DNA of 52,766 nt. It comes from Moorena sp. SIO1G6. Lineage in GTDB: Bacteria > Cyanobacteriota > Cyanobacteriia > Cyanobacteriales > Coleofasciculaceae. A program made the position numbers and the translations under genes. The DNA lies in NCBI RefSeq assembly GCF_010672795.1, contig NZ_JAAHFZ010000014.1, positions 1 through 52,766 of the forward strand, written 5' to 3'. The notes under the pieces are model-generated. The model was not told the DNA's origin. It saw only the letters and a program-made list of their open reading frames with translations, and ran no database searches. The first letter of the stretch is position 1; each line of letters opens with the position of its first letter. Positions 14,411 to 52,762 of this stretch are shown here, piece after piece.

Positions 14411-14455
14411 GGTGCGCTTGACCCATTAAGAATTAAATTCGCCACGGGTCGCACC
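14411..14455. repeat. MITE-like palindromic element copy (GGTGCGCTTGACCCATTAAGAATTAAATTCGCCACGGGTCGCACC)
   Basis: Same family as 20-63 and 48666-48711. Confidence 0.7.
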
Positions 14456-14646
14456 GTCAGGAACGGGCAAGATGCCCATTCCACAAAACTATTCAAATCA
14501 TTCCATTATTAAGCAACGCCTCAAAGAATGGTCTAAGGAAAAGAAAATCACTGCTTTGATAAGGAAAGCCAATGGTACGGGAGTAATCAAAATTAGCCAT
14601 TACCCATTACCAATAATTATCTTCTCACTGAGCTGGATTGATCTAG

Positions 14647-21298: not shown

Positions 21299-21436
21299 AC
21301 TATGCGATTAGCCCGAAGGGCTACGCTACGCTCCGGAAGCGTTTCGGCAAAGCCGACGCTACGCGAACGCAAAGCGTGGCCTACGGCCTCAGCTTCCGCG
21401 CTTATGCGATTAGCCCGAAGGGCTACGCTACGCGAT
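21299..21436. repeat. Composite repeat: two copies of TATGCGATTAGCCCGAAGGGCTACGCTACGC flanking copies of the GCTACGCGAACG / GCGTGGCCTACGGCC dispersed repeat
   Basis: Seen directly. The ORFs 21202-21480(-) and 21302-21523(+) are artefacts of this repeat. Confidence 0.75.
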
Positions 21437-41200: not shown

Positions 41201-43117
41201 CTACAGTTTGTTGTTAGGTTTGTATATTACATCATAATCAAAATTTTGTAAACTAGATTTTAATGGTTGCTTGATTTTAGTCACTCCAGAGAGGCGAGTA
41301 TGAAGTTGACATTGTCCAAGATAAATTTGTGCTACACTATCTCCTGGATTCAAGCGTAGACATTCCTGAAACAGAACTGATGCCTTGGAGAAATAACGCA
41401 GATTATAAAGCACCAAGGCTTGTTCAAATTTGCTGCGAGTAATTAACTTGCCCTCTCGCAATTGCGGTTCATCGGCATCAAAGATTTCATAAACTGTCAC
41501 CATTTCGGATTTGCCCTTCACTGGTACCCGATCAATCAAGCGAATGGCATAAGCTAAGGGATTATCTAACTTCCAATAAGTATGGTGAGTGATTAATAAT
41601 GGCACCCCATAAGGTTTCGTTAATTCTTCTAAACGAGACGCTAAATTAACCCCATCGCTGATGACAGTGCTATCCATCCGATTTTTTCCTCCCACTGTTC
41701 CTAACATCAAGGAACCAGTATTGATGCCAATGCCAACGGTGATGGCTGGGTGTCCTGAGCTTCGCCGAGATTGATTATAGTCAGCTAGGGATGTGAGCAG
41801 AGCAATTCCGGCGTTGACCGCATGATTAGCACTTTCGTTAAACAGAGCCATAATCCCATCCCCCATGTATTTATCAATAAAGCCATGATTTTCAGTGATG
41901 ACAGATTCCATACGAGAAAGATAGGTATTGATAAATTCAAAATTTTCCTCAGGTGTCATACTTTCCGAGAGGGTGCTAAAGGAGCGAATATCGGAAAATA
42001 GCACCGACATCTCTTGCTGAACATGATCCCCTAATTGAACATCGACAATGCTTGGTTTGTTCAATAACTGGAGAAACTGATGGGGAACAAAGCTTTCATA
42101 AGCTTGATTAACTTGCGAGAATTCCTGCATCAAGCGTAGGTGTTCTGCTTCTGCTTTTTTGCGTTGGGTGATATCATGAAAGGCAACGATAGCATAGGCA
42201 ATGTTACCCAATTCATTAAAGATAGGTGTTCCCCAACTTTCTATAGGGAGAATTTTGTCTTCTTGGTGGATTTCAATATCATCGAGGGTGGAGTTTTCAC
42301 CTTTTAAGGCCTTTACAGCAACTAATTTTTCAGCAAAGTATAGCTGATTGGTTCCGGCAACATAAAGTTGATAAACCTCTGGCATTTGCTCAACTGTAGT
42401 TAATGGCACGACTCCCTTTCCGAATAACTGCCGCGCCTTATAATTGAGGAATTCTAGTATCCCCTTATCATTAAACACAGCCACACCCACAGGCATCCTT
42501 TCTAGGAACTGGGTCAATTGATACTGCTTCTCTAGCAGTTCGTCAACTAGGACAGCTTGCTGACGGTTTATAGAACTCAGGTGCTGCCACTCTTGATTAG
42601 CTTGTTCTGGTGCTGTAGTATATTCTGAAATCTGTGCTGCTTGATCACAGATTATTTTTTCCAAGTGCTGATTGAGTTCCTGAAGTTGGCGATTTTGTGC
42701 CTTCAATGTTTCCTCAAGAAGATAACTATGTATGGCTTCTATGACTGTCAATTTAAGGTCTTCAGATGGACAAGGCTTGCCTAGGTAACGATATAACTTT
42801 GCATACCGAATTGCCTTGGCTGTCCCTTCCAAATCCAGATCATCCGTCAGCATAATTTTGATAGTTTGGTTAGAGAAAAAATAAGCTATGTTTAATAAGT
42901 CATCCCCTTTTAGATCAGGGATAACAGCACCAGCCAAAACTAAAGCAACTTCAGACTCATCATGGCGCAACTCTTCGACTAACTTGACAACCCCTTTACT
43001 CCCTTCAAAATTTTCAATCAGATGTTCTTTGCCGAGAGTCTTACCTAGAGATGTTTTTAGGCTATTGAGAACTGATGGATCATTATCAATACAAATAATT
43101 ATTAATGGGTTTGTCAT
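41201..43117 (-). CDS. Signal-transduction protein: receiver-like domain + coiled coil + PAS + class III adenylate/guanylate cyclase (CHD) domain
   Basis: The N-terminal CheY-like fold has IICIDND. The central PAS resembles ...GVAVFNDKGILEFLNYKARQLFG.... The C-terminal cyclase core is VLFSDIRSFSTLSE...GDGIMALF... Confidence 0.75.
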   Translation of the reverse strand: MTNPLIIICIDNDPSVLNSLKTSLGKTLGKEHLIENFEGSKGVVKLVEELRHDESEVALVLAGAVIPDLKGDDLLNIAYFFSNQTIKIMLTDDLDLEGTAKAIRYAKLYRYLGKPCPSEDLKLTVIEAIHSYLLEETLKAQNRQLQELNQHLEKIICDQAAQISEYTTAPEQANQEWQHLSSINRQQAVLVDELLEKQYQLTQFLERMPVGVAVFNDKGILEFLNYKARQLFGKGVVPLTTVEQMPEVYQLYVAGTNQLYFAEKLVAVKALKGENSTLDDIEIHQEDKILPIESWGTPIFNELGNIAYAIVAFHDITQRKKAEAEHLRLMQEFSQVNQAYESFVPHQFLQLLNKPSIVDVQLGDHVQQEMSVLFSDIRSFSTLSESMTPEENFEFINTYLSRMESVITENHGFIDKYMGDGIMALFNESANHAVNAGIALLTSLADYNQSRRSSGHPAITVGIGINTGSLMLGTVGGKNRMDSTVISDGVNLASRLEELTKPYGVPLLITHHTYWKLDNPLAYAIRLIDRVPVKGKSEMVTVYEIFDADEPQLREGKLITRSKFEQALVLYNLRYFSKASVLFQECLRLNPGDSVAQIYLGQCQLHTRLSGVTKIKQPLKSSLQNFDYDVIYKPNNKL

Positions 43118-43771: not shown

Positions 43772-45127
43772 GTGATGACTATTGATCAGGTACTTGACAT
43801 CCTCAAAAGTGTTGAGAAAATCAAGTTGACTCCACTTCAGGAATGGATACTGCACCAAGCCTGGGAAGGAAAAACCTATACCGATATGGCGATCGAAGCA
43901 CACTATGGTCCTGAATACCTCAGAAAGACTGCCTATAAGTTGTGGCGATTACTGGGAGATATTTTTGGCAAAGCGATCACCAAGACCAATTTCCGGAACA
44001 CCCTGGAGACAACCCCGATTACTCCCTACTATCAAGAGATAATTGAGCAATATTACCGCCGTCAATGCCTACGTCAAATTGCTGAATTTCCCAGTGGAGC
44101 ACTTCCCCTACCATCTCAGCTTTATATAAAGCGTCCTCCTATTGAAGAGCTTTGCTATCAAGCCATCCAGCAACCTGGGAGTTTGCTCCGGATTACAGGA
44201 CCAAAAGAGACAGGAAAAACCTCTTTGCTGCTGCGAATATTAGACCAGGCAAGAGAAAAACAATATCACAGAGTATACCTCAATTTTGACCAAGCCGAAA
44301 CCGCAATTTTAAGTAATTTAGACCGGCTATTGCGCTGGTTATGTGTTAACGTCAGTTACCAACTCCAGCTTCCCCACCAACTGGATGACTATTGGGATAA
44401 AGACCTAGGCAGTAAGGTCAGCTGTATGAGTTACTTACAAGAACATATCCTAGAAAAAATACACCATCCCCTCGTTTTGGCAATGGATCAAGTTCATCAC
44501 CTGTTTGAGCATGCCCAAACTGCTAAAGATTTTTTGCCCTTATTGCGCTCTTGGCATGAGGAAGCTAAACAACTACCGGTGTGGCGAAAGCTGCGGGTGA
44601 TTGTGGTTTACTCGACAGAAATTTATGTTGCTCTGGAAACTTCCCAATCTCCGTTTAATGTGGGATTACCGATTAAGTTACCCGAGTTTAACAAACAGCA
44701 AATCCAGCAGTTAGCGCAGCTTTATAGATTACATTGGTCAAATAGTGAAGCTGCTGAGAAACTGATGGCTATGGTGGGAGGACATCCGGGATTAGTGCAG
44801 CTTGCTCTCTATCATTTGGCTTATCATAACATTAGCCTAGAACAATTACTCGCTGAAGCAGCTACTGCTACGGGAATTTATAGTGACTATTTGCGGCAAC
44901 ACTTGAGTGTACTCAGGGCAAATCCTGATTTAGCTACTACTCTTAAACAGGTGGTTATAGCAGATAGGGGAGTTGAACTAGATCCAATCAGTATCTATAA
45001 GTTACAGAGTATGGGTTTGGTGAGTGTTCAGAGAAATCAAGTCACACTCTGTTGTAATTTATATCGTCAGTATTTTTTAGAACACCTTGATATGTTGAAG
45101 GTTGAAGGTTTAAGGTTTAAGGTTTAA
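43772..45127 (+). CDS. HTH + AAA-like (P-loop NTPase, AAA_35-type) domain protein
   Basis: The N-terminal LTPLQEWILHQAWEGKTYTDMA... is a LuxR-like HTH. Walker A is GPKETGKTS and Walker B is LVLAMDQV. Confidence 0.7.
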   Translation: MMTIDQVLDILKSVEKIKLTPLQEWILHQAWEGKTYTDMAIEAHYGPEYLRKTAYKLWRLLGDIFGKAITKTNFRNTLETTPITPYYQEIIEQYYRRQCLRQIAEFPSGALPLPSQLYIKRPPIEELCYQAIQQPGSLLRITGPKETGKTSLLLRILDQAREKQYHRVYLNFDQAETAILSNLDRLLRWLCVNVSYQLQLPHQLDDYWDKDLGSKVSCMSYLQEHILEKIHHPLVLAMDQVHHLFEHAQTAKDFLPLLRSWHEEAKQLPVWRKLRVIVVYSTEIYVALETSQSPFNVGLPIKLPEFNKQQIQQLAQLYRLHWSNSEAAEKLMAMVGGHPGLVQLALYHLAYHNISLEQLLAEAATATGIYSDYLRQHLSVLRANPDLATTLKQVVIADRGVELDPISIYKLQSMGLVSVQRNQVTLCCNLYRQYFLEHLDMLKVEGLRFKV

Positions 45128-47393: not shown

Positions 47394-47444
47394 TGGGGAG
47401 ATGGGGAGATGGGGAGATGGGGAGATGGGGAGATGGGGAGATCA
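47394..47444. repeat. Octamer tandem repeat (GGGGAGAT x6)
   Basis: gggtggggagatggggagatggggagatggggagatggggagatcag. Confidence 0.85.
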
Positions 47445-47601: not shown

Positions 47602-48438
47602 TTAAATGTCATCGGGATTAATACCCATCTGTCGTAACCGTTCAGCTAGTTGTTGAGCTCGTTGTTGAGCGAGTTCAGCTCGTTGTTGAGCCAGTTCAGC
47701 TCGTTGTTGAGCCAATTCCTTCTGTTGACGTTCTTGTTCAGCTCGTTGCCGTTGAAGTTCGGTTCGTTCTGCCTCAGTGGGAATCCAATTCCCATTTTGA
47801 TCATACCAACGTAGCCACAACCGATTTAATCCCCGATATTGACCAAGCCATAGCCCTATACCCAATTGCAACTCAGGGATCCAAAATTGGGAATTGTCTA
47901 TGGTTTGGGGTTGATAGCTACCGCCATCTAACTTAAAAATTCGCAATTCATTGCTGACTCGGTCGAAGGTGAGATAGTAGGGAATTGCTAAAATCTGCTC
48001 GTACACTTCCCATTTGGTGGGTGGTTCTCCCGTTCGTTCACTGTAACCGAGGTCTTGATCTCTGGTGCTGGCAGAGAGCAACTCTATCGCCACAATGGGT
48101 CTGACCTCTTCTTGCCAGATCACATAACTCATCCTGAGCTCTCGTTCCTGGTAGAATCGGGAAATCCCTACTACGGCAAACCAATCCGGTCGTTTATACC
48201 AAGCCGTATGCTGCGGGTCATAATATAAATTTAAGTCACTGGCGACAAACACCCTTTCCCTGTCATAATTGGGAGGGCGAAATGTCTCACTACACAGTTG
48301 TGGTTGCCAAAGATGAAATTCGTCAGGCAAACCCGGCTCCTCGGGATCTTCACTGGGTAAATCATACATGGTGGGCAGGGTTTCTTTAGCCGGATGAGGG
48401 AGAATAACTTTTTTAAATGAGGGTTTGGCAAGTGACAT
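47602..48438 (-). CDS. Uma2-family (DUF820, PD-(D/E)xK-like) putative endonuclease with a C-terminal QQRAEL coiled-coil repeat
   Basis: TMYDLPSEDPEEPGLPDEFHLWQPQLCSETF... is the hallmark Uma2 N-terminus that is very abundant in cyanobacteria. The tail (ELAQQRA)x4 is encoded by a 21-bp tandem repeat at 47640-47720. Confidence 0.75.
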   Translation of the reverse strand: MSLAKPSFKKVILPHPAKETLPTMYDLPSEDPEEPGLPDEFHLWQPQLCSETFRPPNYDRERVFVASDLNLYYDPQHTAWYKRPDWFAVVGISRFYQERELRMSYVIWQEEVRPIVAIELLSASTRDQDLGYSERTGEPPTKWEVYEQILAIPYYLTFDRVSNELRIFKLDGGSYQPQTIDNSQFWIPELQLGIGLWLGQYRGLNRLWLRWYDQNGNWIPTEAERTELQRQRAEQERQQKELAQQRAELAQQRAELAQQRAQQLAERLRQMGINPDDI

Positions 48439-48504
48439 GAGATGACCTCAATTTTTCCGACTGATGAGTTTGATCTTAGCAACTGCCGGTAAGCATTTAG
48501 CCCT

Positions 48505-48560
48505 CAGCTGTCAGCTGTCAGCTGTCAGCCATCAGCTGTGCTCCCTGTTCCCTGTTCCCA
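48505..48560. repeat. Heptamer tandem repeats (CAGCTGT x4; CCCTGTT x2)
   Basis: cagctgtcagctgtcagctgtcagccatcagctgtgctccctgttccctgttccc. The CCCTGTT repeat also occurs at 7266-7283. Confidence 0.8.
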
Positions 48561-48665: not shown

Positions 48666-48711
48666 GGTGCGCTTTCCGCATCTAATTATTAAATTCGCCA
48701 CGGGTCGCACC
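48666..48711. repeat. MITE-like palindromic element copy (GGTGCGCTTTCCGCATCTAATTATTAAATTCGCCACGGGTCGCACC)
   Basis: Same family as 20-63. The bases ggtgcgctttccg are identical to copy 1. Confidence 0.7.
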
Positions 48712-48769
48712 GCTCCCTACTCCTTTTACTTTATAATTATAGATAAACCAAAAAACAACTACCAATATC

Positions 48770-48952
48770 ATGCTAGATTGGTTAGCAGTTTGGGGAATTT
48801 CTAGTGCTGGTGGCTATCTCGCCAAAGAGGTGATTGGTCCCTTGGCAAAAGAGGCTCTAGAAGACTACACTAAAGAGTTTTTCAAAGAGTCTATCAAAGA
48901 GTATACTGGACTATCGGATCAAAATACCCAAAAATTTTTGGTCAAGCCTTAA
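48770..48952 (+). CDS. Small ORF (60 aa), possibly a fragment of a frameshifted N-terminal domain belonging to the downstream NACHT gene
   Basis: The ORF is followed by further protein-like ORF pieces in other frames up to 49168 (ALLEEELEDADLSKQKLKPYSKPLKQYIKHKSIKAILGSAFKYGC and IELDLLELPEGFDWHYVLYW). Confidence 0.25.
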   Translation: MLDWLAVWGISSAGGYLAKEVIGPLAKEALEDYTKEFFKESIKEYTGLSDQNTQKFLVKP

Positions 48953-49168
48953 AATAATTCGTGGCTTTATTGGAAGAAGAATTGGAAGATGCTGATTTAT
49001 CTAAGCAAAAATTAAAACCGTATAGTAAACCTCTCAAGCAGTATATTAAACATAAATCCATTAAAGCTATCCTGGGCAGTGCGTTCAAGTATGGCTGTTA
49101 AGGAATAGATACCGATATATTAGCGAAGACTTAGATTGAGCTTGACTTATTAGAATTACCGGAAGGAT

Positions 49169-52100
49169 TTGATTGGCACTATGTACTATATTGGTAAAAG
49201 CTATCTCAAGAAAGGAAAAAAAAAGAACAATAAGAAAGTAAAAAATAAAAATATTATTCGGGAATCAGAGCAGTTACGGCCTATTCGAAATTCCCAAACC
49301 TTGGAAGCGATCGCAGAAAACACTAAACCAGAAATTACCCCAGATTTTGAATTAAAAAAATATCAGGAAGCACTCCTAGAGAGCTATGGTAATCTCAAAT
49401 TGGATAGTTTGGATACTAGTGGCTGTGCTTATAATGAACTAAAACTCTGGAATATATTTATCCACCAAAATGTGCAAGAGGTTCATGACTTGATGCCGGA
49501 GGGGATTCATGAACTGCCTAAGGATTATTATCAAAAACTGCAAGAGAGTGGTGAATTAGATATCGAAATTGACCAAAAGGAGTTGCAACGAGCTAGAAAG
49601 GATTATTATCAACAGCCAATTAAATCCGTATTGGATGTAATTAAGGACTCTCAAGGCTATCGCTATTTGGTGGTTTTAGGAGACCCAGGCTCTGGTAAAT
49701 CTACCTTGCTGCAATATTTAGCATTGGAGTGGGCAAGAACTGATCTAACTACTGAAAGTTCTCTACGGATTCCGTTACTGATTGACTTACCCACTTATAT
49801 CCGGAATCGCGATAGTGGACAGTGTCAGAATTTCTTGGAATTCTGCCATCAAAGTAGTGGAACGATATGTCATCTCAATCAAAATAAACTTGATGATAAG
49901 TTAAAGGCGGGTATTGTCTTAGTGATGTTTGATGGCTTGGATGAAGTGTTTGAGCCAGGGAAACGAGAGGATATAATTACTGATATTCATCGCTTTACGA
50001 ATAATTATCCTAAGGTAAGAGTAATTGTGACATCTCGGGTAATTGGTTATAAACCTCAACGGCTACGGGATGCTGATTTTCGTCATGTAATGCTCCAAGA
50101 CTTGGAGTCGGAACAAATTCAAACGTTTATCCAGCAGTGGCATGAGTTAACCTTTACTGATCAAGTCGATAAAGTTAGGAAACAGGAGCGCTTACAAAAA
50201 GCAATAAAGACATCCTCTCGGATTCGAGAACTGGCGCAAAATCCCCTATTACTAACCATGATGGCAATCCTGAACCGCAATCAAGAATTGCCTCGTGACC
50301 GCTCTGAACTCTATAACCAATCTTCTCGGTTACTGCTCCATCAATGGGATGTGGAACTAGCATTACTAGAAGATAATCCTGTTGATCCGAAGACTATTGA
50401 TTATCAAGATAAGCAACAGATATTGGGAAAAGTGGCAGATTTCATGCAGGGTAATCAAGGGGGATTAGCGGGAAATCTGATTAGTGGGGAAGATTTAGAA
50501 AGAATTATCAAAGAGGAGCTGAAATTACGGGAGGTTACTAATCCTAAAGCTGTTGCTAAGGTAATGATTAATCAGTTGTGTACCCGCAATTTTATCTTCT
50601 GTTCAATGGGAGCCAATTACTACGCTTTTGTGCATCGGACATTTTTGAACTATTTCTGTGCTCGGGAATTGGTCAGGAAATTTGAGAAAAAGCAGGAGAT
50701 TTCCCTAGCACAGTTGAAAACTGAGGTATTTGGTAAGCACTGGCGGGATGAATATTGGCATGAAGCGCTCCAGTTGATTGTGGGCATGGTTGATTCTACC
50801 AAAGCTGGAGAGATTATTGAGTATTTGATGGAACAAGGTGGAGTAGAGGATGATTTTAATAATTTATTTCTGGCAGGGGATTGTTTATCTGAGGTTAGGA
50901 ATCGGTATGAGATTAAATCAACGAATATTGGATTACTGAATCGCGTCAAAGACTTAATTCATTATGATCTAAATTCTACTGATAACAAGTATGGAGATGA
51001 GGCCAACTTAGTCCGTGATATTCGCACTAAAGCTGTTGTAGCAGTAGCCACCCATTGGCAAGACCACCGAGATACCTTAGCCCTACTTAAAAAATTGGCT
51101 CGCTCGGATGCTGATAGGTATGTGCGAGTTAGAGCAATTGAACAGTTAGTTCAAGGTTACAAAGACCACCGAGATACCTTAGCCCTACTTAAAAAATTGG
51201 CTCGCTCTGATACGGATTTGTGGGTGCGAGCTACAGCAATTGAACAGTTAGCTAAAGGTTACAAAGACCACCGAGATACCTTAGCCATACTTCAAGAATT
51301 GGCTCGCTCTGATACGGATTTGTGGGTGCGATGTAGAGCAATTGAACAGTTAGCTAAAGGTTACAAAGACCACCGAGATACCTTAGCCATACTTAAACAA
51401 TCGGCTCGCTCTGATACTGATTCGGAGGTGCGAATTACAGCAATTGAACAGTTAGCTCAAGGTTACAAAGACCACCAATATACCTTAGCACTACTTGAAC
51501 AATCGGCTCGCTGTGATACTGATTCGGAGGTGCGAGTTAGAGCAATTGAACAGTTAGTTCAAGCTTACAAAGACCACCTAGATACCTTAGACATACTTCA
51601 AGAATTGGCTCGCTATAATACTGATTCGTGGGTGCGAGGTACAGCAATTGAACAGTTAGCTAAAGGTTACAAAGACCACCGAGATACCTTAGCCATACTT
51701 AAACAATCGGCTCGCTGTGATCAAGATTGGCAGGTGCGAGTTAGAGCAATTGAACAGTTAGCTCAAGGTTACAAAGACCACCGAGATACCTTAGCCCTAC
51801 TTCAAGAATTGGCTCGCTGTGATACTGATTCGGATGTTCGATGTAAAGCAATTGAACAGTTAGCTAAAAGTTACAAAGACCAGCGAGATACCATAGCCAT
51901 ACTTCAAGAATTGGCTCGCTCTGATACTGATTCGTGGGTAAGAATTACAGCAATTGAACAGTTAGCTAAAGGTTACAAAGACCACCGAGATACCATAGCC
52001 CTACTTCAACAATGGGCTCGCTGTGATACTGATTCGTGGGTACGAGTTACAGCAATTGAACAGTTAGCTAAAGGTTACAAAGACCACCGAGATACCATAG

Positions 52101-52762
52101 CCCTACTTCAACAATGGGCTCGCTATAATACTGATTCGAGTGTGCGAGTTAGAGCAATTGAACAGTTAGCTAAAGGTTACAAAGACCACCGAGATACCAT
52201 AGCCCTACTTCAACAATGGGCTCGCTCTGATACTGATTGGCAGGTGCGATGTACAGCAATTGAACAGTTAGCTAAACGTTACCAAGACCACCGAGATACC
52301 TTGGCCCTACTTCAAGAATCGGCTCGCTCTGATACTGATTCGGATGTGCGAGTTACAGCAATTAAACAGTTAGCTAAACGTTACCAAGACCACCGAGATA
52401 CCTTAGCCCTACTTCAAGAATCGGCTCGCTCTGATACTGATTCGGATGTGCGAGGTAGAGCAATTGAACTGTTAGCTCAAGGTTGGCACGATCGCGTAGC
52501 GTGGCCTACGGCCAATCAGCCTTGGTTATTTGAATTTTTATGCGATCGCATTCTCCATGACCCCTATGATCCTAATAAGGATAAGAAAAACGTGATTGTC
52601 TATGGACTAGAAAACAATCCTCGACAAGCAGCCCTTAATGCCATCCTCAAATATTATCCTAACCATTCCCAAACCCGATCCTTATTACAGGATAGAGCAG
52701 AGCATGACTCCGATCCTGAACTGCGGAAGTTTGCTAAGGATAATTTAGAATGTAGAATTTAG
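49169..52762 (+). CDS. NLR-like STAND NTPase: NACHT domain + 14 tandem HEAT (PBS-lyase/E-Z type) repeats
   Basis: Walker A is VVLGDPGSGKSTLLQYLA and Walker B is VLVMFDGLDEV. The pre-NACHT motif is KKYQEALLESYGNLKLDSLD. Then come 14 units of the 34-aa repeat HRDTLALLxxLARSDTDxxVRxxAIEQLAKGYKD. The true start is uncertain: the first ~25 codons are K-rich translated A-tracts, and the first ATG is at 49181. Confidence 0.8.
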   Translation: MIGTMYYIGKSYLKKGKKKNNKKVKNKNIIRESEQLRPIRNSQTLEAIAENTKPEITPDFELKKYQEALLESYGNLKLDSLDTSGCAYNELKLWNIFIHQNVQEVHDLMPEGIHELPKDYYQKLQESGELDIEIDQKELQRARKDYYQQPIKSVLDVIKDSQGYRYLVVLGDPGSGKSTLLQYLALEWARTDLTTESSLRIPLLIDLPTYIRNRDSGQCQNFLEFCHQSSGTICHLNQNKLDDKLKAGIVLVMFDGLDEVFEPGKREDIITDIHRFTNNYPKVRVIVTSRVIGYKPQRLRDADFRHVMLQDLESEQIQTFIQQWHELTFTDQVDKVRKQERLQKAIKTSSRIRELAQNPLLLTMMAILNRNQELPRDRSELYNQSSRLLLHQWDVELALLEDNPVDPKTIDYQDKQQILGKVADFMQGNQGGLAGNLISGEDLERIIKEELKLREVTNPKAVAKVMINQLCTRNFIFCSMGANYYAFVHRTFLNYFCARELVRKFEKKQEISLAQLKTEVFGKHWRDEYWHEALQLIVGMVDSTKAGEIIEYLMEQGGVEDDFNNLFLAGDCLSEVRNRYEIKSTNIGLLNRVKDLIHYDLNSTDNKYGDEANLVRDIRTKAVVAVATHWQDHRDTLALLKKLARSDADRYVRVRAIEQLVQGYKDHRDTLALLKKLARSDTDLWVRATAIEQLAKGYKDHRDTLAILQELARSDTDLWVRCRAIEQLAKGYKDHRDTLAILKQSARSDTDSEVRITAIEQLAQGYKDHQYTLALLEQSARCDTDSEVRVRAIEQLVQAYKDHLDTLDILQELARYNTDSWVRGTAIEQLAKGYKDHRDTLAILKQSARCDQDWQVRVRAIEQLAQGYKDHRDTLALLQELARCDTDSDVRCKAIEQLAKSYKDQRDTIAILQELARSDTDSWVRITAIEQLAKGYKDHRDTIALLQQWARCDTDSWVRVTAIEQLAKGYKDHRDTIALLQQWARYNTDSSVRVRAIEQLAKGYKDHRDTIALLQQWARSDTDWQVRCTAIEQLAKRYQDHRDTLALLQESARSDTDSDVRVTAIKQLAKRYQDHRDTLALLQESARSDTDSDVRGRAIELLAQGWHDRVAWPTANQPWLFEFLCDRILHDPYDPNKDKKNVIVYGLENNPRQAALNAILKYYPNHSQTRSLLQDRAEHDSDPELRKFAKDNLECRI
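51053..52485 (+). repeat. 14 x 102-bp near-identical in-frame tandem repeats (HEAT-like) with variation confined to a few codons
   Basis: Seen directly. The units are >90% identical at the DNA level. The variable codons map to repeat positions ~9-10 (KK/QE/KQ/EQ/QQ), 12 (L/S/W), 15-16 (SD/CD/YN), 19-20 and 23-24 (RVR/RAT/RCR/RIT/RGT/RCK/RVT). Confidence 0.9.

What the first reader, a model, noticed from the sequence alone, without database searches (positions are those of the whole stretch)
49169..52762. NLR-like NACHT-HEAT STAND NTPase with highly internally conserved, hypervariable-position repeats (candidate antiviral/conflict sensor)
The 3' 1.4 kb of this gene is 14 copies of a 102-bp unit that are almost identical at the nucleotide level. 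Nearly all differences fall in about 6 codons per unit, and these are predicted to face the concave, ligand-binding surface of a HEAT solenoid. The same architecture (NACHT/NB-ARC plus high-internal-conservation repeats with a few diversifying positions) characterises fungal and bacterial NLR-like immune receptors and bacterial Avs/bNACHT antiphage proteins. This gene would be a HEAT-sensor member in a cyanobacterium. The pattern implies ongoing concerted evolution, by unequal crossover or gene conversion, with diversifying selection, i.e. a rapidly evolving recognition module. The neighbourhood is accessory in nature: a Uma2 nuclease, MITEs and a degraded upstream ORF.
Basis: partly seen in the sequence, partly recalled or inferred. 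Interest (0 to 1): 0.8.

Follow-up and report, generated by a model that had tools for sequence, protein, structure and literature searches.

The report
Decapitated cyanobacterial NACHT–HEAT immune-receptor-like gene
This is a real NLR-like gene of the marine cyanobacterium Moorena (a NACHT ATPase followed by 14 near-identical HEAT-like repeats that differ mainly at exposed positions), but it belongs to a large, already catalogued family, and its own N-terminal domain has been destroyed by old mutations while the rest is still kept intact by selection.

Summary
ORF 49169/49181–52762 carries a NACHT domain and a 14 × 102-bp in-frame array (51053–52480). Mean unit identity is 87.5% at nucleotide level, so "almost identical" is too strong. 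Variation is position-specific: 9 codons hold 59% of the differences and 13 hold 74%, not about 6. Four of the nine (plus one moderately variable codon) align with the randomised concave-face positions of αRep HEAT-like binders. Four others lie at the end of the other helix.

The "degraded upstream ORF" is this gene's own 5' end. The ancestral start is ATG 48770. About two thirds of the NNH2 N-terminal domain is ruined by stops and frameshifts. Four of these changes are shared with orthologues in three other Moorena species. A shared 7-bp insertion created the present ATG at 49181.

The remaining ~3.6-kb ORF is open in all four lineages, and its NACHT module has pN/pS 0.36–0.52. It is therefore a selected, effector-less derivative, not a dead gene. 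The repeats show gene conversion, changes in unit number and, in one comparison, pN/pS = 2.

The architecture is known: bacterial NACHT–HEAT proteins, and NLR repeats with high internal conservation. No defence role was shown. Interest is moderate.

The parts
48770..49180 (+). Degraded 5' part of the ancestral gene. It encoded the first ~24 residues and about the first two thirds of the NNH2 domain, and now evolves neutrally.
   Evidence: It aligns codon for codon with the start of intact paralogues (MLDWLA.WG.SSAGGYLAKEV…). Lesions are a 4-bp deletion after 48931, TAA at 48955, TAA at 49099 and TAG at 49132. Divergence among orthologues is JC 0.045–0.097, equal to dS of the NACHT module.
49178..49184 (+). 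7-bp insertion ACTATGT. It shifts the old frame into a stop and creates ATG 49181 in frame with the downstream ORF.
   Evidence: Present in the window and in L001, L002 and L003. Absent from three intact paralogues. NCBI's protein P0001 from another M. producens strain starts at the same MYYIGK.
49181..52762 (+). Retained ORF (1193 aa plus stop): effector-less NACHT–HEAT protein.
   Evidence: Open in four lineages (1145–1193 aa). NACHT-module pN/pS is 0.36–0.52, P ≤ 0.004. Under neutral substitution it would stay stop-free with P ≤ 0.018 per lineage.
49211..49246 (+). A-rich in-frame insertions (24 bp at 49211–49234 shared with the orthologues, plus 6 bp at 49241–49246 specific to the window, separated by 6 bp of original sequence). 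They give a Lys/Asn-rich new N-terminus (KKGKKKNNKKVKNKN).
   Evidence: Alignment A1 and the lesion list.
49241..49417 (+). Remnant of the NNH2 domain (profile positions 124–181 of 181).
   Evidence: Pfam PF22734, 55.7 bits, ORF aa 25–83. Intact paralogues match positions 1–181 with 198–200 bits.
49661..50146 (+). NACHT NTPase domain: Walker A 49679–49705, Walker B 49919–49945, VIVTSR 50021–50038.
   Evidence: Pfam PF05729, E 3.7e-13. Motif coordinates. A profile of the module finds NLRC4 as the best solved relative (E 0.0015).
50147..50950 (+). Helical and winged-helix part of the NOD module and the linker to the repeats (NPLLLTMM 50240–50263; FVHRTFLNYF 50627–50656).
   Evidence: Strongly conserved in 12 homologues. 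Motifs located. Domain boundaries are inferred, not modelled.
50951..51052 (+). Degenerate first repeat, acting as an N-cap of the solenoid (…DEANLVRDIRTKAVVAVAT).
   Evidence: In register with the array. Helical in the AlphaFold2 model.
51053..52480 (+). Array of 14 × 102 bp (34 aa) HEAT-like repeats with high internal conservation.
52481..52759 (+). C-terminal cap region conserved in the family (QPWLFEFL … NPRQAAL … YPNHSQTRSLL … LRKFA). In the window it carries inserts (RVAWPTAN, KKNVIVYGLE) that are absent from the orthologues.
   Evidence: RVAWPTAN is shared with paralogue P0014, which suggests a mosaic 3' end. pLDDT is low for most of this stretch.

Best explanation
The gene is a member of the large NNH2–NACHT–HEAT family of NLR-like STAND NTPases found in filamentous cyanobacteria. 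The organism is a Moorena species.

**History of the gene.** In the common ancestor of at least four Moorena lineages the 5' end was knocked out by two stops and a 7-bp insertion. That same insertion supplied a new ATG at 49181. Since then the old 5' part has decayed neutrally. The 1145–1193-codon NACHT–HEAT reading frame has been kept by purifying selection.

**The repeat array.** The C-terminal 14-unit array is an αRep/PBS-type HEAT solenoid. Its scaffold codons are kept alike by gene conversion and unit duplication or loss. Exposed codons differ from unit to unit, mainly 22, 23, 26 and 27 on the second helix and 13–15 and 18 at the end of the first.

**Inferred mechanism (not shown).** The array binds a protein ligand. 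Binding releases the NACHT module for ATP-dependent oligomerisation. Because its own N-terminal domain is gone, the output must go one of two ways: through co-assembly with intact paralogues (which lie directly downstream in the orthologous loci), or through an effector-independent action as in effector-less bNACHT proteins.
For: **Family and domains**
- More than 2,668 homologues were found. The best are Moorena proteins at 91–92% identity.
- Pfam finds NACHT, HEAT_2 and an NNH2 remnant.

**Decapitation**
- Intact paralogues start at the position equivalent to 48770 and have a complete NNH2 domain.
- Four changes in the 5' region are shared: GAA>TAA, TGG>TAG, the 7-bp insertion and an in-frame 24-bp insertion. 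Nine further disabling lesions are lineage-specific within ~410 bp.

**Selection on the remainder**
- None of the four ~3.5-kb ORFs has a lesion.
- NACHT-module pN/pS is 0.36–0.52, P ≤ 0.004. Intact paralogues show 0.23–0.36.
- The degraded part diverges at the synonymous rate.
- Simulation gives P(no stop) ≤ 0.018 per lineage under neutral substitution.

**Repeats**
- Searches give the array statistics.
- The best solved matches are αRep proteins, with their variable positions aligned to our 22, 23, 26, 27, 30 and 34. αRep binds its targets on that concave face (PMC6362204, PMC3754942).
- The model is a confident solenoid.
- A window-specific variant is spread over four units.
- Orthologous units show pN/pS 2.04, against 0.52 for the NACHT module in the same pair (Fisher P = 6e-4).

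**Tandem paralogues** lie downstream of the orthologues.

**Effector-less bNACHT proteins can defend against phage** (10.1101/2022.07.19.500537).
Against: - There are no expression data. The promoter scan was uninformative, and the only Shine–Dalgarno-like GGAAGGA lies 13 nt upstream of ATG 49181.
- pN/pS of the truncated lineage is somewhat higher than in intact paralogues, so constraint is relaxed.
- Positive selection is not consistent across comparisons: L002 against L003 gives 0.82. A test on counts of residue states per codon was not significant (P = 0.11).
- The adjacent paralogue is not always intact. L001 copy 2 and L003 copy 2 are broken.
- The window ends 4 bases after the stop codon, so its own downstream neighbour is unknown.
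- No match to any validated defence family was found, and no defence genes flank it.
Confidence: 0.65

Rival explanations
1. It is a plain pseudogene. The N-terminal lesions killed the gene, and the long downstream ORF is open only because too little time has passed or because gene conversion from intact paralogues keeps repairing it.
For: The 5' ~410 bp holds five disabling lesions. Many paralogues in Moorena are also split or truncated. The exact protein is absent from the protein and contig collections, as expected if annotators call it a pseudogene. pN/pS is higher than in intact paralogues. Gene conversion does act in this family.
Against: Across four lineages there are nine lineage-specific lesions in 410 bp and none in ~3.5 kb. 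Scaled by length, about 77 would be expected. P(no stop) is ≤ 0.018 per lineage from substitutions alone. pN/pS is 0.36–0.52, significantly below 1 in all six pairs. Orthologues are closer to each other (dS ≤ 0.097) than to any paralogue (dS ≥ 0.22), so paralogues are not overwriting the ORF.
Confidence: 0.12
2. It is a non-immune signalling ATPase. The HEAT array binds an endogenous partner, for example a phycobilisome-related protein as other cyanobacterial PBS-type HEAT proteins do. The protein would then act as a regulatory switch or scaffold.
For: The locus is syntenic and chromosomal, next to a release factor, a cyclase, and LmeA-like and Uma2 genes, with no defence island. There are no PADLOC matches. 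The repeats are of the PBS/αRep type. Some sources name family members simply 'signal transduction protein'.
Against: Several features are the hallmarks of conflict receptors rather than housekeeping regulators: many paralogues per genome with gain and loss at this locus, unit-to-unit variation at exposed positions, pN/pS of 2 in one orthologue comparison, and changes in repeat number (PMC4986451; 10.1101/2020.01.06.895854).
Confidence: 0.18
3. It is an intact, complete NLR, with the gene starting at 49169 and an unrelated degraded ORF upstream.
For: The ORF list shows a single 1197-aa frame from TTG 49169.
Against: The upstream 'ORF' aligns with the first ~135 codons of intact paralogues of the same family. 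Pfam NNH2 matches only profile positions 124–181 in this ORF, against 1–181 in paralogues.
Confidence: 0.02
4. The repeat array is an assembly artefact: collapsed or chimeric repeats.
For: Arrays with high internal conservation are often misassembled from short reads (PMC12222747). P0001 from another strain ends inside its array.
Against: The units are distinguishable (78–94% identity). The array is collinear, unit by unit, with three independent assemblies (diagonal identity 91–97%). It is in frame throughout.
Confidence: 0.03

Closest known systems
Bacterial NACHT (bNACHT) NLR-related proteins with repeat sensors, as catalogued by Kibby et al. (bioRxiv 10.1101/2022.07.19.500537)
   Same: Central NACHT module. 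C-terminal 'antigen-receptor-type' HEAT repeats. The family's N-terminal NNH (NACHT N-terminal helical) domain. Enrichment and many paralogues in multicellular cyanobacteria.
   Different: None of the PADLOC bNACHT or Avs models matches. The NNH2 domain is two-thirds destroyed here. No phage-defence test exists for this family. The repeats are far more alike than usual.
Fungal NLRs with repeats of high internal conservation (HET-E/HET-D/HNWD; P. anserina Pa_6_7270, sesB-like/NACHT/HEAT) (PMC4986451, PMC12222747)
   Same: NACHT plus near-identical tandem repeats. Variation concentrated at a few exposed positions. Repeat-number polymorphism. Homogenisation by recombination between units.
   Different: This is a bacterial gene, and its units are 87% rather than >85–90% identical. 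Most units keep positional orthology between species, so reshuffling is slower. Evidence for positive selection is mixed. The N-terminal effector is lost.
Bacterial NLRs of filamentous bacteria with highly conserved WD/TPR repeats (Dyrka et al., bioRxiv 10.1101/2020.01.06.895854)
   Same: The same phenomenon (80–90% identity between repeat units) in NLR-like proteins of multicellular bacteria, including cyanobacteria.
   Different: That work reports WD and TPR repeats and amyloid or Bell-domain signalling partners. Here the repeats are HEAT-like, and no amyloid motif or partner gene was seen.
αRep artificial binders and their natural thermostable HEAT-like (PBS-type) repeat family (PMC3754942, PMC6362204; PDB 5dcq, 8aw4, 9rhz)
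   Same: These are the best solved-structure sequence matches. They share the D-x-x-V-R-x-x-A-(A/I) helix. The naturally hypervariable positions (αRep 18, 19, 22, 23) coincide with our 22, 23, 26 and 27. In αRep these form the concave target-binding face.
   Different: The unit is 34 aa, not 31, with a two-residue insertion at the end of the first helix that is itself variable (positions 14 and 15). αRep position 26 (our 30) is conserved here. The natural context is an NLR, not a stand-alone repeat protein.
Plant sensor/helper NLR networks and mammalian NAIP–NLRC4 (analogy only, from general knowledge)
   Same: A receptor with a diversified sensor but a degenerate or absent executioner N-terminus, lying next to paralogues that retain it.
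   Different: Hetero-oligomerisation is entirely untested here. The adjacent paralogues are not consistently intact.

Membership tests
NACHT clade of STAND NTPases | Match to the NACHT profile above the curated threshold | tested here: met
   PF05729, 50.1 bits against a cut-off of 26.7, aa 165–326 covering profile positions 1–165 of 167.
NACHT clade of STAND NTPases | Intact Walker A (GxxGxGKS/T) and Walker B followed by acidic residues (hhhhDGhDE) | tested here: met
   GDPGSGKST at 49679–49705 and LVMFDGLDE at 49919–49945. Both are invariant in 12 homologues.
NACHT clade of STAND NTPases | NBD–HD1–WHD fold like solved NLRs | tested here: inconclusive
   The profile search finds NLRC4 as the top solved relative, but only at E 0.0015–0.0037 and over the NBD–HD1 part. 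The single sequence finds nothing.
NACHT clade of STAND NTPases | ATP binding or hydrolysis and ligand-induced oligomerisation | not testable with these tools
   Needs biochemistry.
NLR-type tripartite receptor (N-terminal effector – NOD – C-terminal repeats) | N-terminal effector or adaptor domain in the same polypeptide | tested here: not met
   Only NNH2 profile positions 124–181 remain. The first ~135 codons are broken by three stops and two frameshifts.
NLR-type tripartite receptor (N-terminal effector – NOD – C-terminal repeats) | C-terminal superstructure-forming repeats | tested here: met
   HEAT_2 at E 5.8e-67. The AlphaFold2 solenoid has pLDDT 85–94. Foldseek hits CAND1/2 and karyopherins with probability 1.00.
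NLR repeats with high internal conservation (as in fungal NLRs) | Repeat units about 80–90% or more identical within one protein | tested here: met
   Mean 87.5% nucleotide identity (78–94%) and 72% amino-acid identity.
NLR repeats with high internal conservation (as in fungal NLRs) | Repeat-number polymorphism and exchange between units | tested here: met
   There are 14, 14, 13 and 13 units in four orthologues. L001 units 7 and 8 are identical duplicates. A window-specific variant occurs in units 8–11 only.
NLR repeats with high internal conservation (as in fungal NLRs) | Positive diversifying selection at a few codons | tested here: inconclusive
   Within the array, the nine variable codons have dN 0.465 and dS 0.027. 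Orthologous units give pN/pS 2.04 (P = 0.009) in one pair but 0.82 in another. Gene conversion confounds these estimates, and no recombination-aware codon model was run.
NLR repeats with high internal conservation (as in fungal NLRs) | Variable codons map to the ligand-binding surface | tested here: inconclusive
   Positions 22, 23, 26, 27 and 34 align with αRep concave-face positions (PMC6362204). Positions 13, 14, 15 and 18 lie at the end of helix A. Model coordinates could not be read.
Validated antiphage STAND systems (bNACHT, Avs) | Match to a defence-system profile | tested here: not met
   PADLOC gives only P-loop-level hits (mad8 E 3.6e-4; PtuA E 5.9e-4).
Validated antiphage STAND systems (bNACHT, Avs) | Location among defence genes | tested here: not met
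   The neighbours are a release factor, a PAS-cyclase, an AAA_35 ATPase, an LmeA-like protein and Uma2. Only the cyclase domain resembles a defence profile (PycC).
Validated antiphage STAND systems (bNACHT, Avs) | Protection against phage, or activation by a phage protein | not testable with these tools
   Needs experiments.

The most novel reading that the evidence does not exclude
The decapitated gene is a dedicated 'sensor' NLR that has lost its own executioner domain. It would signal by co-assembling with intact NNH2–NACHT–HEAT paralogues of the same tandem cluster, giving a bacterial counterpart of plant sensor/helper NLR pairs or NAIP–NLRC4. Loss or separation of the N-terminal domain seems to recur in this family. 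Besides this lineage, it happened through a 26-bp hairpin insertion at a HIP1 site in three paralogues, and through 5' replacement in L006/P0021–23. This hints that splitting sensing from execution is favoured repeatedly.
Probability: 0.15. Interest if true: 0.75.

Novelty: new member of a known kind. Interest (0 to 1): 0.4.

Why it matters
The gene adds a HEAT-repeat example from a cyanobacterium to the short list of bacterial NLR-like receptors whose sensor repeats evolve in the 'high internal conservation' mode known from fungal allorecognition receptors. This supports the view that this way of generating recognition diversity is ancient and shared.

The more useful result is evolutionary. 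A bacterial NLR that lost its N-terminal domain has been kept under selection across several species, beside intact paralogues. This makes the question of whether bacterial NLRs work in sensor/helper combinations directly testable, using a defined set of natural alleles.

The natural repeats also mirror the design logic of αRep binders, so such arrays could be mined as pre-evolved binder libraries.

Tried and rejected
**Dead ends**
- Looking for the source contig, to see what lies beyond the window's end. Exact-protein look-ups failed for the ORF from ATG 49181, for Uma2 with two alternative starts, and for P0001 and P0009.
- Modelling the intact NNH2 domain from a single sequence (P0004 residues 1–204). 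Mean pLDDT was 52, too poor for a fold search, so the function of NNH2 stays unknown.
- Reading model coordinates to map the variable residues. No structure file is exposed to scripts, so mapping rests on the αRep alignment and the secondary structure.
- An Rfam scan of the whole window found nothing.
- The promoter/terminator scan around the new start did not exceed the shuffles.
- PADLOC and NCBIfam gave no informative family for the protein.
- A dispersion test on the number of residue states per codon was not significant (P = 0.11). The case for position specificity therefore rests on frequency-weighted entropy and on its correlation with independent arrays.

**Considered and rejected**
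- Read-through or programmed frameshifting across the 5' lesions. Three stops and two indels are present, and the lesions differ between lineages.
- A diversity-generating retroelement as the source of variation. No reverse transcriptase is nearby, and the variation is not adenine-specific.
- MITE insertions next to the gene. Only a 25-bp dispersed repeat was found.

Full report
**1. What is in the sequence**

The + strand has one long open frame, 49169–52762 (1197 aa from the first TTG). No other ORF of 50 aa or more overlaps its 3' 1.8 kb on either strand.

Tandem Repeats Finder reports one array at 51060–52484: period 102, 14.0 copies, 89% matches, no indels, score 2057. Put in codon register, this is 14 units of 34 aa at 51053–52480. 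A degenerate cap repeat precedes it (50951–51052), and a conserved ~93-aa C-terminal region follows.

Units are 78–94% identical in nucleotides (mean 87.5%) and on average 72% identical in amino acids.

Pfam finds the following:
- NACHT: aa 165–326, 50.1 bits against a cut-off of 26.7.
- HEAT_2: E 5.8e-67, seven stretches.
- NNH2, 'NACHT N-terminal helical domain 2': aa 25–83, matching only profile positions 124–181 of 181.

Walker A (GDPGSGKST) and Walker B (LVMFDGLDE) are intact. A profile of the NACHT module from 12 homologues finds NLRC4 as the best solved relative, although weakly (E 0.0015).

**2. The variable positions**

Nine codons have residue entropy above 1.2 bits: 1, 13, 14, 15, 18, 22, 23, 26 and 27. 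Four more are moderately variable: 3, 9, 11 and 34. Eleven codons never change residue, among them L12, A16, V24, A28, I29 and L32.

The nine codons hold 59% of all pairwise nucleotide differences, and the thirteen hold 74%. "About six codons" is therefore too few.

Non-synonymous codon differences outnumber synonymous ones 876 to 96. Nei–Gojobori estimates within the array are:

| Codons | dN | dS |
|---|---|---|
| All 34 | 0.163 | 0.056 |
| Nine variable | 0.465 | 0.027 |
| Other 25 | 0.075 | 0.065 |

A simple dispersion test on the number of residue states per codon is not significant (P = 0.11). The pattern is still not random. The per-position entropy of this array correlates with that of 11 Moorena paralogues (rho 0.60, P = 2e-4) and of 40 proteins from other genera (rho 0.55, P = 7e-4).

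**3. Fold and surface**

A single-sequence AlphaFold2 model of residues 560–1197 has pLDDT 85–94 throughout the array. It shows a strictly periodic helix–turn–helix. Helix A covers unit positions 6–18 and helix B covers 22–35. Foldseek against the PDB returns HEAT/ARM solenoids: CAND1/2, Kap121, transportin and SF3B1, all at probability 1.00.

By sequence, the best solved relatives are the artificial αRep binders (5dcq, 8aw4, 9rhz; E 2e-6 to 2e-4). In those alignments the αRep library positions 18, 19, 22, 23, 26 and 30 fall on our positions 22, 23, 26, 27, 30 and 34. The αRep papers state two things. These positions were chosen because they are hypervariable in the natural repeat family. Targets bind on the resulting concave face (PMC3754942, PMC6362204).

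Four of the nine hypervariable codons, plus position 34, are thus on the expected binding face. Positions 13, 14, 15 and 18 are at the C-terminal end of helix A. Positions 14 and 15 are a two-residue insertion relative to αRep. In αRep that helix lies on the outer side. These positions adjoin the A→B turn, so all nine may line one rim of the solenoid. This is inferred, because I could not read the model's coordinates. The 'concave face' claim is therefore about half supported.

**4. The gene is decapitated**

Intact Moorena homologues (P0002, P0004, P0014) begin MLDWLA.WG.SSAGGYLAKEV… and carry a complete NNH2 domain (aa 25–205, 198–200 bits). Exactly this sequence is encoded in the window from ATG 48770.

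Aligned with three intact paralogues, the window has these changes:
- a 4-bp deletion after 48931;
- GAA>TAA at 48955;
- AAA>TAA at 49099;
- TGG>TAG at 49132;
- a 7-bp insertion ACTATGT at 49178–49184;
- in-frame A-rich insertions of 24 and 6 bp at 49211 and 49241.

The 7-bp insertion throws the old frame into a stop. It also creates ATG 49181 in frame with everything downstream (MYYIGK…). NCBI's protein P0001 from another M. producens strain starts at that very methionine.

**5. The decapitation is old and the rest is under selection**

A scan of one genome per species returned three orthologues:

| Locus | Species | Protein identity over the NACHT module | Flanking synteny |
|---|---|---|---|
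| L001 | Moorena sp. SS36440bin_2 | 88% | LmeA-like gene (Uma2 replaced) |
| L002 | Moorena sp. SIO3H5 | 88% | not visible (contig starts near the gene) |
| L003 | M. bouillonii PNG | 90% | LmeA-like and Uma2 genes |

All three share the GAA>TAA stop, the TGG>TAG stop, the 7-bp insertion and the 24-bp insertion. Each also has lesions of its own:
- L003: ATG>ATC, GAG>TAA and a 1-bp deletion.
- L001 and L002 together: a 23-bp insertion and TGG>TGA.
- L001: a 2-bp deletion.
- L002: a 1-bp insertion.

That makes nine lineage-specific disabling lesions in ~410 bp. The downstream ORFs (1193, 1180, 1146 and 1145 codons) have none. Scaled by length, about 77 would be expected.

Three further results agree:
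- The degraded part diverges at JC 0.045–0.097, the same as the synonymous rate of the NACHT module (dS 0.056–0.096).
- The NACHT module has pN/pS 0.36–0.52, below 1 in all six pairs (P ≤ 0.004). This is somewhat above the 0.23–0.36 seen among intact paralogues.
- Simulated neutral substitution leaves the 3.58-kb ORF stop-free with P = 0.018 at 2% change, and about 0 at 4.5% change.

The orthologues are closer to one another (dS ≤ 0.097) than to any paralogue (dS ≥ 0.22). Repair by conversion from paralogues therefore does not explain the open frame. I conclude that an effector-less NACHT–HEAT protein is being maintained.

**6. How the array evolves**

The four orthologous arrays have 14, 14, 13 and 13 units and are largely collinear. 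Orthologous units are 91–97% identical, against 75–94% for non-orthologous pairs. Wholesale reshuffling has therefore not occurred since these species split. Exchange does continue:
- L001 units 7 and 8 are identical duplicates.
- Window units 12 and 13 are 94% alike.
- A T>A change (Leu>Ile, codon 9) is present in window units 8–11 and in none of the 40 units of the other three arrays.
- Smaller lineage-specific variants shared by neighbouring units occur in L002 and L003.

Between orthologous units of the window and L003, pN/pS is 2.04 (84 non-synonymous against 12 synonymous changes, P = 0.009). The NACHT module of the same pair gives 0.52, and the contrast is significant (Fisher P = 6e-4). 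Between L002 and L003 the repeats give 0.82. Diversifying selection is plausible but not uniformly shown, and conversion between units confounds the estimate.

**7. Family and context**

The protein search returned more than 2,668 homologues at E ≤ 1e-5. They are nearly all NNH2–NACHT–HEAT proteins of filamentous cyanobacteria: Moorena, Coleofasciculus, Nostoc, Trichocoleus, Okeania and others.

Moorena genomes carry several paralogues. At this locus the number varies:
- L001–L003 have the truncated gene followed by one or two further copies in tandem.
- L002 copy 2 is intact, with about 16 highly similar units.
- L004 and L013 have a different paralogue directly after Uma2.

The window ends 4 bases after the stop codon, so its own downstream neighbour is unknown.

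Loss or separation of the N-terminal domain recurs in the family:
- Three paralogues (L001 copy 2, L013, L005) carry a 26-bp insert at a GCGATCGC site that splits NNH2 from NACHT–HEAT. The insert is a 21-bp hairpin element plus an apparent 5-bp duplication, and it occurs in both orientations.
- L006/P0021–23 lack NNH2 altogether.
- Their NACHT modules remain stop-free (L001 copy 2, L005, L013), with low ω (for example 0.30 for L005 against L013).

The neighbours in the window are a release factor, a PAS-containing class III cyclase, an AAA_35 ATPase, an LmeA-like protein and Uma2. None is a recognised defence gene apart from the cyclase's generic similarity to PycC. The protein itself matches no PADLOC family beyond the P-loop.

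**8. Comparison with what is known**

- Kibby et al. catalogued about 20,000 bacterial NACHT proteins. They noted HEAT repeats among the 'antigen-receptor-type' sensors and defined NNH domains. They reported that 58% of cyanobacteria encode NACHT proteins, with up to 23 paralogues per genome. They also showed that an effector-less clade can defend against phage (10.1101/2022.07.19.500537).
- NLR repeats with high internal conservation, positive selection at a few positions and repeat-number polymorphism are established for fungal NLRs. One example is a sesB-like/NACHT/HEAT gene of Podospora (PMC4986451).
- Dyrka et al. noted the same 80–90% unit identity for WD and TPR repeats of bacterial NLRs (10.1101/2020.01.06.895854).

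The present gene is thus a new member of a known kind. The HEAT version in a bacterium, and above all the conserved decapitated state, are the new elements.

**9. Mechanism and confidence**

Shown here:
- the domain content, repeat structure and solenoid fold;
- position-specific variation;
- ancient loss of the N-terminal domain;
- purifying selection on the remainder;
- exchange between units.

Inferred:
- The array binds a protein ligand on the face lined by positions 22, 23, 26 and 27.
- Binding licenses NACHT oligomerisation.
- Output depends on partners, possibly intact paralogues, or on an effector-independent action.
- The role is in conflict or immunity.

Confidence: about 0.9 that it is an NLR-like NACHT–HEAT protein with highly conserved repeats. 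About 0.75 that the truncated ORF is functional. About 0.5 that it acts in defence.

**10. Verdict**

Novelty is modest and interest moderate (0.4). The sensor/helper reading is the most novel possibility not excluded (probability about 0.15).

Noticed in passing
window 21309-21329 and 21411-21431 (- strand); L001 10235-10255, L013 6096-6116, L005 2301-2321, L004 238-258: A 21-bp hairpin element, GTAGCGTAGCCCTTCGGGCTA, is dispersed in Moorena DNA. In three paralogous NACHT–HEAT genes it sits inside a HIP1 palindrome (GCGATCGC), in either orientation and with an apparent 5-bp duplication. It adds 26 bp and splits the NNH2 ORF from the NACHT–HEAT ORF. A related 23-bp insert lies in the degraded part of the L001 and L002 orthologues.
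   Followed up: partly
L001 9688-12238; L002 5086-9252; L003 9740-11197 and 11414-13876: In the orthologous loci the truncated gene is followed in the same orientation by one or two further NNH2–NACHT–HEAT paralogues. Some are intact (L002 copy 2, 1389 aa, about 16 highly similar repeats). Others are broken. The window stops 4 bases after the gene, so its own downstream region is unseen.
   Followed up: partly
L006 5866-8376 (proteins P0021–P0023): This is a second Moorena lineage of the family that lacks NNH2. Its N-terminus (MEARLRGRSREQGTGNREQGTGN…) appears to be read from an intergenic heptamer-repeat sequence. A protein of this group, P0022, is annotated by NCBI as MULTISPECIES, that is, identical in several Moorena.
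   Followed up: no
window 52481-52759: The C-terminal cap of the window protein carries RVAWPTAN and KKNVIVYGLE segments that are absent from the three orthologues. RVAWPTAN is shared with the more distant paralogue P0014 (M. producens JHB). This suggests a mosaic 3' end produced by recombination between paralogues.
   Followed up: partly
window 41201-43117 (- strand): A 638-aa protein with a PAS domain and a class III nucleotide cyclase domain matches several Pycsar cyclase (PycC) profiles (best E 8e-21). No Pycsar effector was looked for, and the match may reflect only the shared cyclase fold.
   Followed up: no
window 43772-45127 (+ strand): A 451-aa protein is a full-length match to the AAA_35 'AAA-like domain' family (E 2e-143), with weaker STAND-like hits (NPHP3_N, AAA_16). 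It is a second large P-loop ATPase close to the NLR-like gene.
   Followed up: no
window 47394-47442, 48504-48539, 47652-47718, 48688-48712: Short tandem arrays flank Uma2: TGGGGAGA × 6 and TCAGCTG × 5. A 21-bp × 3 repeat inside the Uma2 gene encodes AELAQQR repeats. A 25-bp segment at 48688–48712 recurs at 40–63 and 14432–14456. No full inverted-repeat element was seen.
   Followed up: partly
L001 3374-4870: In Moorena sp. SS36440bin_2 the Uma2 gene upstream of the orthologue is replaced by a 499-aa ORF with a Cas12f1-like TNB domain (TnpB-like). This indicates transposon activity beside the cluster.
   Followed up: no
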